DNA of 64,000 bases from Escherichia coli O127:H6 str. E2348/69 (GTDB lineage: Bacteria > Pseudomonadota > Gammaproteobacteria > Enterobacterales > Enterobacteriaceae). The stretch lies in the NCBI RefSeq assembly GCF_000026545.1, contig NC_011601.1. One strand, given 5' to 3'. Every line of letters begins with the position of its first letter. Within the stretch, counting starts at the first letter, position 1. Positions 1-3,000 of the stretch are shown here, in pieces. Position numbers: made by a program.

Positions 1-3000
1 GCAACGGCACGACCGCTTTCCAGGGTACGGAAAGAGTCACCGTGATCTTTGGCGCTGATGATGCGCATATTCATTTTTTGCTCTTCATTCAGTTTGTTGA
101 GCAAAACTTCAGAGGTGGTGCCGGAAGTGACGACTACGGCTTTGCCTTTCAGGTCGGCAAAATCTTTGATATCGCCGCCCTTTTTGGTCAGCAGGCGCGT
201 ACCGACCACGAAAATAGTGTCAGAGAAAGCCGCCTGTTTTTGGCGTTCGGCATTGTTGGTGGTAGAACCGCATTCAAAATCGAAAGTGCCGTTTTGCAGC
301 AGTGGAATACGGTTTTGTGAGGTGATCGGAATCAATTTCACCTGTAAGTCTGGTTTGTTGAGTTTCTTTTTCACTGCTTCAACAATGGCGTTGGAGTAAT
401 CCTGCGAGTAGCCCACCACTTTTTGCTGATTGTCGTAATAAGAGAAAGGTACTGAAGATTCACGGTGACCGACGACAATCACGCCGTTTTTGGCGATTTT
501 GTCCAGCGTGCTGCCTGCTGCCGGGGCGGCGTCATCTGCCTGTGCCAGTCCTGCGGAAAGCGCCAGGGCCAGGATTGCTGTGGCAGGTTTACGTAATTGC
601 ATATCCAACTCCTTTATCTTCTGCGTTAAAAACGCATGGATACCCGTTGTGAGTGTTTGTGTTGTTATCATCTGCGACTTTATTGTGCAGTGTTGTGTTT
701 GTTAGGTAACATTTAGTTTGGATAAATGTAAAGATATTGATGTTTTATTGTTTATTTTTGCGAGGTGCGCCGCACCATTCCGAAGCAAAATTCTTAAACC
801 GCACCTTTTTGGTGCTACCGCTGATTTGTGGTGGTGCAACCCGGTTGCGTTGCGGCTGATTTCATTGCTTACACAGTAAATAAAGCAACTTACATGCCAA
901 AAAATACTTAGGGGTGAATTAATTACGATTGTAATTTCAGTTTGAAAAAGTCATATTTCGGACAGTGTTAACTTTTCGGTGTGGGACGTTTGCCGGGATG
1001 ATAACTACACACGGGAAAATGCTTTTTACTAGTCTTTTCAAGGAAGAATCACCTTATGTCTGCATCTTCGGTTAAGCCGTTAAATGTTCAATTACCCGCA
1101 ATAACCCTGATCCTTTTTGCGCTCTGTGTTGGGATATTTTGTTACCTCGCACAATGGATGAGTTACGAAGAAGTCGATCAATCCGCACTCATCCATCTCG
1201 GCGCTAACGTTGCCTCTCTCACGTTGTCGGGTGAACCCTGGCGCTTATTGAGCAGTGTCTTTCTGCACAGTAGTTTTTCCCATTTGCTGATGAATATGTT
1301 TGCACTCCTGGCGGTGGGGACAGTAGCGGAACGGATACTGGGGAAATGGCGACTCCTGATTATCTGGTTATTCTCCGGCATCTTTGGTGGGCTGATCAGC
1401 GCCTGTTATGCGTTACGCGAAAGTGAGCAGATAGTCATCAGCGTTGGGGCATCCGGGGCAATTATGGGAATAGCGGGCGCTGCGATAGCAACACAGCTTG
1501 CTTCAGGTGCGGGCACACACCATAAAAACCAGCGGCGAGTATTTCCTCTGTTGGGTATGGTGGCGCTGACACTGTTGTATGGTACCCGGCAAACAGGAAT
1601 AGATAACGCTTGCCACATTGGCGGCCTGATTGCGGGGGGCGCGTTGGGTTGGCTGAGTGCGCGTTTAGTTGGGCAAAATCGGCTCGTTACGGAAGGCGGG
1701 ATTATTGTTGCGGTCACTCTTCTTCTGACCGGGACTATCTGGCTTGTGCAGCAGCAGATTGATGAATCAGTTTTACAGGTCAGGCAAAGCCTGCGTGAAG
1801 CGTTTTATCCGCAGGAGATTGAACAAGAGCGACGACAAAAAAAGCAGCAGTTAGTGGAGGAGCGCAACGCCCTCAGGGAAACATTATCCGCTCCGGTAAG
1901 TCGTGAGCAGGCCAGTGGTGATTTACTCGCTGAGATTGCCGATATCCATGATATGGCGATCAGTCGGGATGCTAATACGTTGTATGCCGCAATTGAAAAC
2001 ACGAACAGCATTGTTGTTTTCGACCTCGGACAAAAGAAAATCCTGCATACCTTTACAGCGCCCATAGCGAAAGAAAAGTCAGTCAAACATTGTGGTGGCT
2101 GTAAAGATCAGGGCGTCAGATCGATGGCATTAAGCCTGGATGAAAAGTTGATTTATGCGACTTCATTTGAAGCGAATGCGTTATCGGTCATTAACGTGGC
2201 GACGGGGGAGATTATTCAGTCGATTACCACCGGCGCACATCCTGACAGCCTTATCCTCTCGTGTGATGGCACAAAAGCCTGGGTGATGAATCGCACCAGC
2301 AATAGTGTGTCAGCGATTGATCTGGTGGCTTATCAGCATGTGGCGGATATCCCGCTGGAGAAATACGACGGGACGGGGATGAGCGGTAAACCAGGCGCCT
2401 GGGTTATGGCACTTTCCCCGGATGAAAAAACATTACTGGTTCCGGGAGCAGGCAGAGGTAACATCGTGCGGTTCAATACCATCACGCATCAGAAAGAAGA
2501 CTTTCCCGCAGGTAATGCGCGTGGTGTCGTTTCTGCGATGGGATTCCGACCAAAAAATGGTGAGGTTATTTTTGCCGATAGCCAGGGGATTTCACGTATA
2601 AGAGCAGAGGATCAACAAGCCAGCATTATGACGCAATGGTGTCGCAGGAGCGTTTATTCCGTTGAGGGTATTAGCCCGGACGGTCAGTATTTAGCGTTGG
2701 TGTCATATGGCCTGCAAGGTTATGTCATCCTGCTCAATATTAATGCCGGGCAGATTATTGGCGTTTATCCTGCCAGCTACGTTAATAATCTTCGTTTTTC
2801 AGCGGATGGTAGAAAGATATTTGTTATGGCGAAGAACAGGTTAATCCAAATGGACAGGACGCGCTCGATTGATCCGCAGGCAATTATTCGGCATCCCCAA
2901 TATGGCGATGTGGCTTGTATCCCTGAAACGTAAGAAAAAAGGGGCATGATAATCATGCCCCACAACTCAATGAGAAAGTATGTTTTGTTGATACCGGATG

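What the first reader, a model, noticed from the sequence alone, without database searches (positions are those of the whole stretch)
1056..2933. Rhomboid intramembrane protease fused to a large beta-propeller-like domain between gltI and lnt
A 625-aa protein combines a complete rhomboid core (TM2 H-x3-N context FLHSSFSHLLMNM, catalytic GASGAIMG and ACHIGGL) with an extra hydrophobic helix, a short coiled-coil-like segment and about 380 residues of repeated beta-strand units resembling YVTN/YncE propeller blades, plus a CxxC pair. The seventh helix would place the propeller on the periplasmic side, suggesting substrate capture or gating for intramembrane proteolysis. As I recall, K-12 carries an IS5 copy at this position and has only GlpG as a rhomboid, so this looks like strain-variable content at a known variable site.
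Basis: partly seen in the sequence, partly recalled or inferred. Interest (0 to 1): 0.75.

Follow-up and report, generated by a model that had tools for sequence, protein, structure and literature searches.

The report
Rhom7 rhomboid protease with periplasmic propeller
The gene is real and is the E. coli E2348/69 copy of Rhom7, a second rhomboid membrane protease already characterised in Shigella sonnei in 2020; what the papers I could search do not say is that its dispensable C-terminal domain is a seven-bladed YVTN beta-propeller, and that about 40% of complete E. coli genomes, including K-12, lack the gene.

Summary
Window 1056-2933 (+) is an intact 625-aa ORF in E. coli E2348/69. It has a complete rhomboid core: Pfam Rhomboid E=1e-28, W62-R63, H76xxxN80, G-A-S133-G, H187, G190xxxG194. 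A seventh TM helix (209-233) follows, then a charged helical linker (237-276) and a seven-bladed YVTN beta-propeller (about 289-621). The propeller's best solved match is 1L0Q, by sequence (E=6e-21) and by fold.

It is not new. It is the ortholog of Shigella sonnei Rhom7 (SSON_0610, Q3Z4D6; Liu et al. 2020, PMC7232013). The locus (gltI-X-lnt), the length and the Ser133/His187 numbering are the same. Identity to the published sequence is at least 90%. Rhom7 is a proven active protease. [quoted passage not shown]

The gene is in 3237 of 5426 complete E. coli genomes. K-12 has IS5D at the site, but the IS sits in an already empty allele that O157 shares.

Added here:
- The fold of the C-terminal domain.
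- Conserved synteny in Klebsiella.
- Relaxed but purifying selection (dN/dS about 0.28, against 0.06-0.07 for the neighbours).
- A mosaic, highly divergent segment in blades 4-5.

Verdict: already known; low to moderate interest.

The parts
1056..2933 (+). rhom7 coding sequence (625 aa plus stop); ortholog of Shigella sonnei Rhom7 / SSON_0610
   Evidence: ORF. RefSeq annotation WP_001276764.1. At least 90% identical to the published Rhom7_Ss sequence. Same locus in S. sonnei.
1056..1670 (+). Six-TM rhomboid core (residues 1-205). AF2 helices: 15-34, 74-95, 97-122, 131-149, 152-178, 184-203. L1 loop 35-73 carries W62-R63.
   Evidence: Pfam PF01694, residues 59-201, E=1.2e-28. AF2 helices. H. 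influenzae GlpG structure 2NR9 at E=2.4e-9. Columns invariant across 15 homologs: W62, R63, H76, N80, G131, S133, G134, H187, G189, G190, G194.
1452..1454 (+). Codon of the catalytic Ser133 (G-A-S-G motif, top of TM4)
   Evidence: Position; invariant. S133A abolishes activity in S. sonnei Rhom7 (PMC7232013).
1614..1616 (+). Codon of the catalytic His187 (TM6, A-C-H-I-G-G-L-I-A-G)
   Evidence: Position; invariant. H187A abolishes activity in S. sonnei Rhom7 (PMC7232013).
1680..1754 (+). Seventh transmembrane helix (residues 209-233), running in to out
   Evidence: AF2 helix 209-233. Kyte-Doolittle peak at 210-236. R203 and R209 lie in the preceding cytoplasmic loop.
1764..1910 (+). Charged helical linker (residues 237-285; helices 237-250 and 253-276), then the conserved P-V-S-x-E-x-A-x-G lead-in to blade 1
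   Evidence: AF2. 9 K/R and 11 D/E in residues 230-289. R243, A286 and G288 are invariant.
1911..2930 (+). Seven-bladed YVTN-type beta-propeller (residues 286-625), predicted periplasmic
   Evidence: TIGR02276 at 49.6 bits, above its cutoff. 1L0Q at E=5.7e-21 by sequence and top Foldseek PDB hit. YncE/YVTN propellers in AFDB50. 14,718 library proteins with E<=0.001, mostly multi-YVTN repeat proteins. The DNA-level repeat D1 encodes the recurring 'MALSxDE' blade motif.
2091..2102 (+). C346-G-G-C349 pair in the long, low-confidence loop between blades 1 and 2
   Evidence: pLDDT <50 for 341-348. Present as CxxC or Cx4C in most homologs but missing from both K. aerogenes sequences. C529 and a C-terminal Cys (C621) are kept almost throughout.
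2376..2615 (+). Mosaic, highly divergent allelic segment (residues 441-520, blades 4-5)
   Evidence: dS is 0.65-0.80 between allele classes here, against 0.02-0.34 in the other segments of the gene. dN/dS is about 0.18.
848..1055 (+). Upstream region specific to rhom7-bearing alleles, with an AAGGAAG Shine-Dalgarno-like site ending 10 nt before the ATG. The simple scan found no consensus sigma-70 promoter.
   Evidence: Boundary with the empty allele at 847/848. Sequence. Promoter scan.
2941..2961 (.). GC-rich hairpin between the convergent rhom7 and lnt genes. The T-run is on the minus strand, so it is a terminator of the lnt operon and possibly also serves rhom7.
2992..3052 (.). REP-like palindromic element (CCGGATGCGGTGTGAACGG...; perfect 16-nt inverted repeat at 3018-3052) between the hairpin and the lnt stop codon
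   Evidence: The resemblance to the REP consensus is from my own knowledge.

Best explanation
This is rhom7, the second rhomboid protease of the E. coli/Shigella lineage.

**Anatomy.** The N-terminus is cytoplasmic. Six TM helices form a canonical rhomboid active site, with Ser133 on TM4, His187 on TM6, H76/N80 on TM2 and the W62-R63 L1 loop. A seventh helix crosses back to the periplasm. A helical linker of about 50 residues then tethers a seven-bladed YVTN beta-propeller outside the membrane.

**Shown, for the S. sonnei ortholog.**
- It is a catalytically active intramembrane serine protease.
- When over-expressed it cleaves the proline-containing TM anchors of HybA and FdnH, Tat-exported Fe-S subunits, when they lack their complex partners. 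This licenses their further degradation, which is membrane-protein quality control.
- TM7 and the C-terminal domain are not needed to cut a model substrate.

**Inferred.**
- The E2348/69 protein does the same.
- The propeller is a periplasmic protein-binding module that recruits or selects native substrates, or regulates access, rather than taking part in catalysis. It is the counterpart of the extracytoplasmic TPR domain that follows TM7 in GluP/YqgP-type rhomboids.

**Evolution.** The gene is old at this locus, being syntenic in Klebsiella. It evolves fast under relaxed purifying selection and has been lost from about 40% of complete E. coli genomes, including K-12 and O157:H7.
For: **Identity**
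- 100% match to E2348/69 and the RefSeq annotation.
- The published Rhom7_Ss sequence is 625 aa, at least 90% identical, with Ser133/His187 at the same numbers.
- The S. sonnei gene lies between gltI and lnt.

**Core and dyad:**

**Activity and substrates:** PMC7232013.

**Topology**
- Seven AF2 helices.
- Positive-inside distribution of charges.
- Four Cys in the C-terminal domain are conserved in two pairs, which fits an oxidising compartment (inference).

**Propeller:**

**Architectural analog:** the C-terminal domain of YqgP is three extracellular TPRs, and its deletion had no effect on MgtE cleavage. Many rhomboid-plus-TPR proteins appear among the homologs.

**Age and selection**
- Same locus in K. 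aerogenes and a K. oxytoca-group genome.
- 48-52% identity, against 83-95% for the flanking genes.
- dN/dS is 0.28, against 0.06-0.07 for lnt and gltI, at similar dS.
- It is 0.17-0.50 among seven E. coli alleles.

**Distribution:** 3237 of 5426 genomes; 6 of 7 sampled copies are intact.
Against: - No experiment exists on the E2348/69 allele.
- In S. sonnei, natively expressed Rhom7 gave no detectable cleavage, and the double glpG rhom7 mutant had no growth, stress or secretion phenotype. The physiological substrates and conditions are therefore unknown.
- Deleting the C-terminal domain left activity on the artificial substrate intact. A role in capture is thus not required for catalysis and is so far unsupported.
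- The inter-domain geometry of the model is unreliable (pTM 0.58).
- I found no conserved gene neighbourhood among the distant homologs that would point to a partner.
- The invariant propeller residues are the structural YVTN motif positions, not an obvious binding site.
Confidence: 0.85

Rival explanations
1. The propeller is a regulatory or gating module, not a substrate receptor. It would be an autoinhibitory lid or a size-exclusion filter over the periplasmic entrance to the active site, as the PDZ tandem is for the S2P protease RseP. It would be released only under some envelope condition.
For: Native Rhom7 shows no detectable cleavage and over-expression is needed. The C-terminal domain is dispensable for activity, as expected for a negative regulator. 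The long tether of about 50 residues could let the propeller fold back over the core.
Against: The published data as read here report no gain of activity on deleting the C-terminal domain, and low expression alone explains the lack of native cleavage. The inter-domain placement in the model is not reliable (pTM 0.58). No sensing ligand is suggested by any domain hit.
Confidence: 0.2
2. In E. coli the gene is a nearly neutral, decaying accessory gene. The protease is catalytically competent but contributes little, which is why it is poorly expressed, often lost and fast-evolving.
For: It is absent from 2189 of 5426 complete genomes, including whole successful lineages such as K-12 and O157:H7. 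It is frameshifted in strain HS, and BS-01 has a separate deletion. dN/dS is about four times that of the neighbours. The S. sonnei mutants have no phenotype. The simple scan found no consensus promoter.
Against: dN/dS of 0.17-0.5 still indicates purifying selection in every domain. The 1.9-kb ORF is intact in 6 of 7 sampled strains, and full-length clusters dominate, with 8814 members in the main cluster. The gene has kept the same locus and full architecture down to 48% identity in Klebsiella. All catalytic and motif residues are invariant.
Confidence: 0.25
3. It is a dedicated processing protease for one sorting signal, like rhombosortase with GlyGly-CTERM proteins or AarA with TatA, rather than a quality-control enzyme.
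For: There is weak similarity to the rhombosortase model TIGR03902 (E=8.6e-12). Rhom7 shares 30% identity with AarA and cleaves the P. stuartii TatA TMD.
Against: The rhombosortase score of 45.3 bits is well below the 84-bit cutoff. No conserved adjacent candidate substrate gene appears in E. coli, Klebsiella, Budvicia or Uliginosibacterium. The only natural substrates found are orphan complex subunits shared with GlpG.
Confidence: 0.05
4. The 625-aa ORF is a fusion artefact of two genes, a rhomboid and a separate propeller protein.
For: Some UniProt/AFDB entries from E. coli and Budvicia hold only pieces: 'Outer membrane protein' of 306 and 349 aa, and 'YncE family protein' of 272 aa.
Against: The full-length ORF is the rule in E. 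coli. It is conserved end to end in seven or more genera. The fragments are at least 90% identical pieces of the same gene, from assemblies where it is split. The S. sonnei protein was cloned and expressed as one protein.
Confidence: 0.01

Closest known systems
Shigella sonnei Rhom7 (SSON_0610, UniProt Q3Z4D6; Liu et al. 2020, EMBO J 39:e102922)
   Same: Same gene: same gltI-X-lnt locus, 625 aa, Ser133/His187, seven TMDs plus a C-terminal domain. Identity to the published sequence is at least 90%, and 92.5% to a S. sonnei isolate protein.
   Different: An allelic variant with about 45 amino-acid differences, including an E2348/69-specific Cys403 (Arg in the S. sonnei sequence and the six other E. 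coli alleles compared) and a divergent 441-520 segment relative to some alleles. No experiment has been done on this allele. The paper does not describe the fold of the C-terminal domain; the word 'propeller' never occurs in it.
Bacillus subtilis YqgP/GluP-type rhomboids (6+1 TM with an extracytoplasmic TPR domain)
   Same: A rhomboid core, then a seventh TM, then a C-terminal extracytoplasmic repeat domain of a protein-binding type. The role is in membrane-protein quality control, and the C-terminal domain is dispensable for the tested cleavage. GluP-like TPR rhomboids are the next-best homologs of the core.
   Different: The ectodomain is a seven-bladed YVTN propeller of about 335 aa rather than three TPRs. 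There is no N-terminal cytosolic metal-sensing domain; only 14 residues precede TM1.
E. coli GlpG
   Same: Rhomboid fold and catalytic dyad. GlpG and Rhom7 overlap in substrates (HybA, HybO TMDs) and in targeting orphan subunits.
   Different: GlpG has a cytoplasmic N-terminal domain, six TMs and no ectodomain. The NCBIfam GlpG models score far below their cutoffs: 42 bits against 250, and 36 against 335. GlpG is core in E. coli, whereas Rhom7 is in about 60% of genomes.
YVTN/YncE beta-propellers (Methanosarcina S-layer protein 1L0Q; E. coli YncE)
   Same: Roughly 40-residue YVTN repeats, a seven-bladed fold and an extracytoplasmic location.
   Different: Here the propeller is tethered to a membrane protease. 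The YncE equivalog model scores 30.9 bits against a cutoff of 400, so this is not YncE. No ligand is known.
Providencia stuartii AarA
   Same: A 6+1 TM bacterial rhomboid with 30% identity to Rhom7. Rhom7 cleaves AarA's substrate TMD, TatA.
   Different: AarA ends shortly after TM7 (281 aa) and has no ectodomain.

Membership tests
Rhomboid (S54) active intramembrane serine proteases | Six-TM rhomboid core domain (Pfam PF01694) | tested here: met
   PF01694 covers residues 59-201, E=1.2e-28. The six core helices appear in the AF2 model. GlpG structures are matched by sequence.
Rhomboid (S54) active intramembrane serine proteases | Catalytic Ser in GxSG on TM4 and catalytic His on TM6 | tested here: met
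   G131-A-S133-G134 and H187; invariant in 15 homologs and 8 E. coli/Shigella alleles.
Rhomboid (S54) active intramembrane serine proteases | Accessory motifs: WR in loop L1, HxxxN on TM2, GxxxG on TM6 | tested here: met
   W62-R63, H76-LLM-N80 and G190-LIA-G194 are all invariant.
Rhomboid (S54) active intramembrane serine proteases | Demonstrated proteolysis of a TM substrate | not testable with these tools
   Shown for the S. sonnei ortholog and abolished by S133A or H187A (PMC7232013). Not done for the E2348/69 allele.
Rhom7 orthologous group | Sequence identity to published Rhom7_Ss, with the same length and residue numbering | tested here: met
   552 of 611 aligned residues are identical to the machine-read Fig EV1 sequence, a lower bound because letters were dropped in reading. 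It is 625 aa with Ser133/His187.
Rhom7 orthologous group | Same chromosomal locus (between gltI and lnt, convergent with lnt) | tested here: met
   Window; S. sonnei contig; also Klebsiella.
Rhom7 orthologous group | Seventh TMD followed by a large C-terminal domain | tested here: met
   Helix 209-233, then residues 234-625.
YVTN beta-propeller repeat proteins (TIGR02276; fold of PDB 1L0Q) | Repeats of about 40 residues matching the YVTN model above its curated cutoff | tested here: met
   49.6 bits against a cutoff of 27.85, in two stretches. Five repeat alignments to 1L0Q.
YVTN beta-propeller repeat proteins (TIGR02276; fold of PDB 1L0Q) | Closed seven-bladed propeller fold | tested here: met
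   In the AF2 model most of the propeller has pLDDT 76-94, with seven groups of four strands. The top Foldseek PDB hit is 1L0Q (E=7e-17), followed by seven-bladed WD40 proteins. This is a prediction, not a solved structure.
YncE (NF052280 equivalog) | Whole-protein score above the curated cutoff | tested here: not met
   30.9 bits against a cutoff of 400; only residues 366-411 match.
Rhombosortase (TIGR03902) | Whole-protein score above the curated cutoff | tested here: not met
   45.3 bits against a cutoff of 84.
GlpG (TIGR04239 / NF008155) | Score above the cutoff, and an N-terminal cytoplasmic domain | tested here: not met
   42.1 bits against 250 and 36.4 against 335. Only 14 residues precede TM1.
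GluP/YqgP-type rhomboids | 6+1 TM topology with an extracytoplasmic C-terminal domain | tested here: met
GluP/YqgP-type rhomboids | The C-terminal domain is made of TPR repeats, and there is an N-terminal cytosolic domain | tested here: not met
   No TPR Pfam hit. The C-terminal domain is a propeller and there is no N-terminal domain.

The most novel reading that the evidence does not exclude
The periplasmic YVTN propeller is a true substrate receptor. It would recognise the periplasmic domains of specific, still unidentified native clients, for example unassembled Tat-exported Fe-S subunits. That would give Rhom7 an ectodomain-directed specificity that no bacterial rhomboid is known to have. 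The 60/40 presence/absence polymorphism and the mosaic blade 4-5 segment would then mean that E. coli lineages differ in which membrane proteins are policed.
Probability: 0.2. Interest if true: 0.55.

Novelty: already known. Interest (0 to 1): 0.25.

Why it matters
How rhomboid proteases choose substrates in bacteria is still largely open, and the role of their extramembrane domains is unknown. Rhom7 is one of very few bacterial rhomboids with identified substrates. Knowing that its dispensable C-terminal domain is a tethered seven-bladed periplasmic propeller gives a concrete handle, such as pull-downs with the isolated propeller or domain swaps with the TPR domain of YqgP.

There is also a practical point. 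Many E. coli strains are not 'GlpG-only' backgrounds. These include the expression host BL21(DE3), the probiotic Nissle 1917 lineage, EPEC E2348/69 and several STEC serotypes. Their second active rhomboid matters for rhomboid substrate assays and for membrane-protein production.

As a genome-scan finding, however, it rediscovers a published gene.

Tried and rejected
- **Conserved neighbours in distant homologs.** I looked at Budvicia L006 and Uliginosibacterium L007 for a partner or substrate. The neighbours differ: unannotated ORFs, a TetR regulator and bgl genes in one; a kinase-like ORF and glycerol dehydrogenase in the other. Nothing is shared.
- **Remnants of the gene in the 'empty' allele.** I compared Sakai and K-12 by blastn with word size 7. 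None was found. The 154-bp filler has no counterpart in carrier strains, so the deletion endpoints cannot be reconstructed.
- **Signs of a mobile insertion.** I searched for flanking direct or inverted repeats and found only REP-like palindromes and the intragenic blade repeats.
- **Rfam scan of 1-3200 at E<=0.01:** no RNA family.
- **Promoter scan:** no consensus sigma-70 site upstream of rhom7. This is a weak negative from a simple scan.
- **Positive selection in the hypervariable blade 4-5 segment.** Rejected. dS is also very high there and dN/dS is about 0.18, so the cause is recombination with a diverged allele, not diversifying selection.
- **Cys-Cys distances in the AF2 model.** The coordinates are not exposed, so the two proposed disulfides rest on co-conservation only.
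- **Literature searches.** Searches coupling bacterial rhomboids with 'beta-propeller' or 'YVTN' found nothing relevant. The library lacks most subscription-journal papers, so this is not proof of absence. At least one database record already labels the K. oxytoca ortholog 'YVTN family beta-propeller protein'.
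Full report

Yes. Window 1056-2933 (+) is a single 625-codon ORF with an ATG start. The window matches E. coli E2348/69 (EPEC O127:H6) at 100%, and RefSeq annotates this ORF as WP_001276764.1, 'rhomboid family intramembrane serine protease'. It lies between gltI (divergent) and lnt (convergent).

Pfam Rhomboid covers residues 59-201 with E=1.2e-28. Across 15 full-length homologs down to 24% identity, these columns are invariant: W62, R63, H76, N80, G131, S133, G134, H187, G189, G190 and G194. 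The protein therefore has every hallmark of an active rhomboid: the L1 WR motif, TM2 HxxxN, TM4 GxSG and TM6 HxGGxxxG.

**2. Anatomy**

An AlphaFold2 model was built on the 15-sequence alignment (mean pLDDT 78.5, pTM 0.58). It gives:
- seven TM helices: 15-34, 74-95, 97-122, 131-149, 152-178, 184-203 and 209-233;
- two charged helices: 237-250 and 253-276;
- about 28 beta-strands between 289 and 621, grouped as seven four-stranded blades, mostly at pLDDT 76-94, with lower-confidence loops.

Three lines support the propeller assignment.
- *Repeat model:* the NCBIfam YVTN repeat model scores above its curated cutoff, 49.6 bits against 27.85.
- *Sequence match to a solved structure:* phmmer against PDB sequences puts the Methanosarcina YVTN propeller 1L0Q first, E=5.7e-21, with five repeat alignments.
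- *Fold match:* Foldseek ranks 1L0Q first in the PDB, followed by seven-bladed WD40 proteins. It finds YncE/YVTN propellers in AFDB50.

The C-terminal domain alone hits 14,718 proteins in the representative library at E<=0.001. Most are giant multi-YVTN repeat proteins matched through the repeat unit.

Topology follows from the rhomboid fold plus one extra helix. The charge distribution agrees. The predicted cytoplasmic segments (N-terminus, TM2-3, TM4-5 with K157/R160/R161, TM6-7) carry about 9 K/R. The periplasmic loops carry about 3.

The C-terminal domain holds two co-conserved Cys pairs. C346/C349 is lost together in K. aerogenes. C529 plus a C-terminal Cys is kept almost throughout. This fits periplasmic disulfides, but it is an inference, because I could not measure distances in the model.

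**3. What it is**

It is Rhom7. Liu et al. 2020 (PMC7232013) identified SSON_0610 in Shigella sonnei as a second rhomboid with seven predicted TMDs and catalytic Ser133 and His187. They showed four things.
- It cleaves a TatA-TMD reporter, and S133A or H187A abolishes this.
- When expressed from a plasmid it cleaves the TMDs of HybA, HybO and FdnH. It also cleaves full-length HybA, and FdnH when FdnI is absent. Cleavage depends on a helix-destabilising proline and licenses further degradation.
- Native expression is too low for detectable cleavage.
- Removing the C-terminal domain, or TM7 plus the C-terminal domain, does not abolish cleavage of the artificial substrate.

The sequence printed in their Fig EV1 is 625 aa. 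It aligns with the window protein at 552 of 611 identical positions. This is a lower bound, since the machine-read text drops letters. A S. sonnei isolate protein is 92.5% identical and lies in the same gltI-X-lnt locus. UniProt Q3Z4D6 is listed as Rhom7 in a 2025 review. Membership in the Rhom7 orthologous group is therefore met on every feature I could test.

**4. Strain variability and history**

The gene is found in 3237 of 5426 complete E. coli genomes, and in 3231 of them essentially full-length.

| Strain | State of the gene |
|---|---|
| BL21 Star(DE3) | intact |
| SYNB1934 (Nissle 1917 derivative, from my own knowledge) | intact |
| O111:H8 | intact |
| O121:H19 | intact |
| IPCEC42 | intact |
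| NDM1 | intact |
| HS | annotated as frameshifted |

K-12 MG1655 has IS5D between gltI and lnt and no rhomboid there. O157:H7 Sakai has a 396-bp spacer and no IS. Alignment shows that K-12 carries the same empty allele as Sakai. IS5 is inserted at a TTAG about 100 bp upstream of gltI, in sequence shared by all strains. This is about 140 bp before the point (window 847/848) where carrier and empty alleles diverge. The empty allele holds 154 bp with no counterpart in carriers, and it has no remnant of the gene. IS5 therefore marks the site but did not replace the gene.

The gene also sits between gltI and lnt in Klebsiella aerogenes. The same holds in a genome whose protein is the same length as, and clusters near, K. 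huaxiensis/oxytoca/michiganensis proteins. Identity there is only 48-52%, while the flanking Lnt, GltI and CorC are 83-95% identical. The simplest reading is an old resident of this locus that evolves fast and has been lost repeatedly.

Between E2348/69 and S. sonnei, dS is similar for rhom7 (0.127), lnt (0.118) and gltI (0.105). dN/dS is 0.28 for rhom7, against 0.07 and 0.06 for the neighbours. Among seven E. coli alleles dN/dS is 0.17-0.50. This is purifying selection, about four-fold relaxed, and roughly even across core, linker and propeller.

More distant full-length relatives (24-33% identity) occur sporadically:
- Budvicia and Cedecea;
- Chromobacterium, Pseudoduganella and Paraburkholderia;
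- Uliginosibacterium and Phytopseudomonas.

**5. How it most likely works**

Shown, in the ortholog:
- Catalysis is by the Ser133/His187 dyad inside the membrane.
- It prefers type I/III TM anchors that contain a helix-destabilising proline and are exposed because the partner subunit is missing.

Inferred: the propeller is a periplasmic protein-interaction module. The architecture (core, then TM7, then an extracytoplasmic repeat domain) is that of GluP/YqgP-type rhomboids. These are the next-best homologs of the core and carry TPR repeats in the same position. In B. subtilis YqgP, deleting the TPR domain likewise did not affect MgtE cleavage. Rhom7 thus looks like the same design with a propeller swapped in for the TPRs.

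I rate recruitment or selection of native clients as the most likely role of the propeller, at perhaps 0.35-0.4. Gating or regulation comes next at about 0.2, and little present-day function at about 0.25. None of these is tested. No conserved neighbour gene and no non-structural conserved surface points to a ligand.

**6. Comparison with the known, and novelty**

- The protein is a member of the S54 rhomboid family and of the Rhom7 orthologous group.
- Its C-terminal domain is a member of the YVTN propeller repeat family.
- It is not GlpG, YncE or a rhombosortase; all three are far below their curated cutoffs.
- It lacks the TPR and N-terminal domains that define GluP/YqgP.

The gene, its activity, its 7-TMD topology and the dispensability of its C-terminal domain are all published.

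The Rhom7 paper never uses the word 'propeller', and neither does the 2025 review. Full-text searches coupling bacterial rhomboids with beta-propeller or YVTN found nothing relevant. Database annotations already hint at the fold, however. There are precomputed Pfam propeller hits, and one K. oxytoca record is named 'YVTN family beta-propeller protein'.

The fold assignment, the survey, the synteny and selection analysis, and the mosaic segment are incremental additions to a known gene.

**7. Verdict**

- Observation: confirmed.
- Interpretation: supported, apart from the missed identity with Rhom7 and the role attributed to IS5.
- Novelty: already known.
- Interest: 0.25.

Noticed in passing
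window 2376-2615 (rhom7 residues 441-520, propeller blades 4-5): A mosaic segment. Between allele classes (E2348/69 or Nissle against BL21, O121 or NDM1) dS is 0.65-0.80 here, against 0.02-0.34 in the other segments of the gene, with dN/dS about 0.18. This looks like intragenic recombination with a deeply diverged allele, not positive selection.
   Followed up: partly
L090 1157-3034 (BL21 Star(DE3)); L091 (SYNB1934): The standard expression host BL21(DE3) carries an intact rhom7 (WP_001276742.1), and so does the Nissle 1917 lineage (I identify SYNB1934 as a Nissle derivative from my own knowledge). These strains are therefore not 'GlpG-only' rhomboid backgrounds, unlike K-12.
   Followed up: partly
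L002 3852-5046 (K-12 IS5D) against window about 703-706: The K-12 IS5D is inserted at a TTAG in the gltI promoter region shared by all strains, within an allele that already lacks rhom7. O157 Sakai has the same empty allele without the IS.
   Followed up: yes
L003 4848-5001 (O157 Sakai spacer): The 'empty' gltI-lnt allele contains about 154 bp with no detectable similarity to anything in the 2.2 kb it replaces in carrier strains (window 848-3071). Its origin is unexplained.
   Followed up: partly
L085 801-2677 (strain HS); L086 1501-1643 (strain BS-01): These are independent inactivations. HS rhom7 is annotated as frameshifted. BS-01 keeps only the last 143 bp of the gene, next to an lnt annotated as partial (missing its C-terminus).
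   Followed up: no
window 2941-3060: Between the convergent rhom7 and lnt genes lie a GC-rich hairpin, with its T-run on the lnt strand, and a REP-like element with a perfect 16-nt inverted repeat at 3018-3052. Several megablast matches to other carrier strains stop at 2962 or 2999, so this spacer varies between strains.
   Followed up: no
AFDB/UniProt entries A0A484VT88, A0A376KY81, A0A484VRC0, A0A376LJY3 (E. coli): Fragments of this gene (179-349 aa, 90-97% identical) are deposited as separate proteins named 'Outer membrane protein' or 'Membrane protein'. These are split ORFs with a misleading name, since the protein is inner-membrane anchored. Similar split entries exist for Budvicia and K. 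huaxiensis.
   Followed up: no
window 2262-2264 (rhom7 codon 403): E2348/69 has Cys403 where the six other E. coli alleles examined and the S. sonnei sequence have Arg ('LSRDG'). This would be an extra unpaired cysteine in a predicted periplasmic domain.
   Followed up: no
L006 676-4754 (Budvicia aquatica, upstream of its homolog, opposite strand): Three consecutive ORFs of 417, 481 and 459 aa have no NCBIfam match at E<=1e-5. They were not examined further.
   Followed up: no
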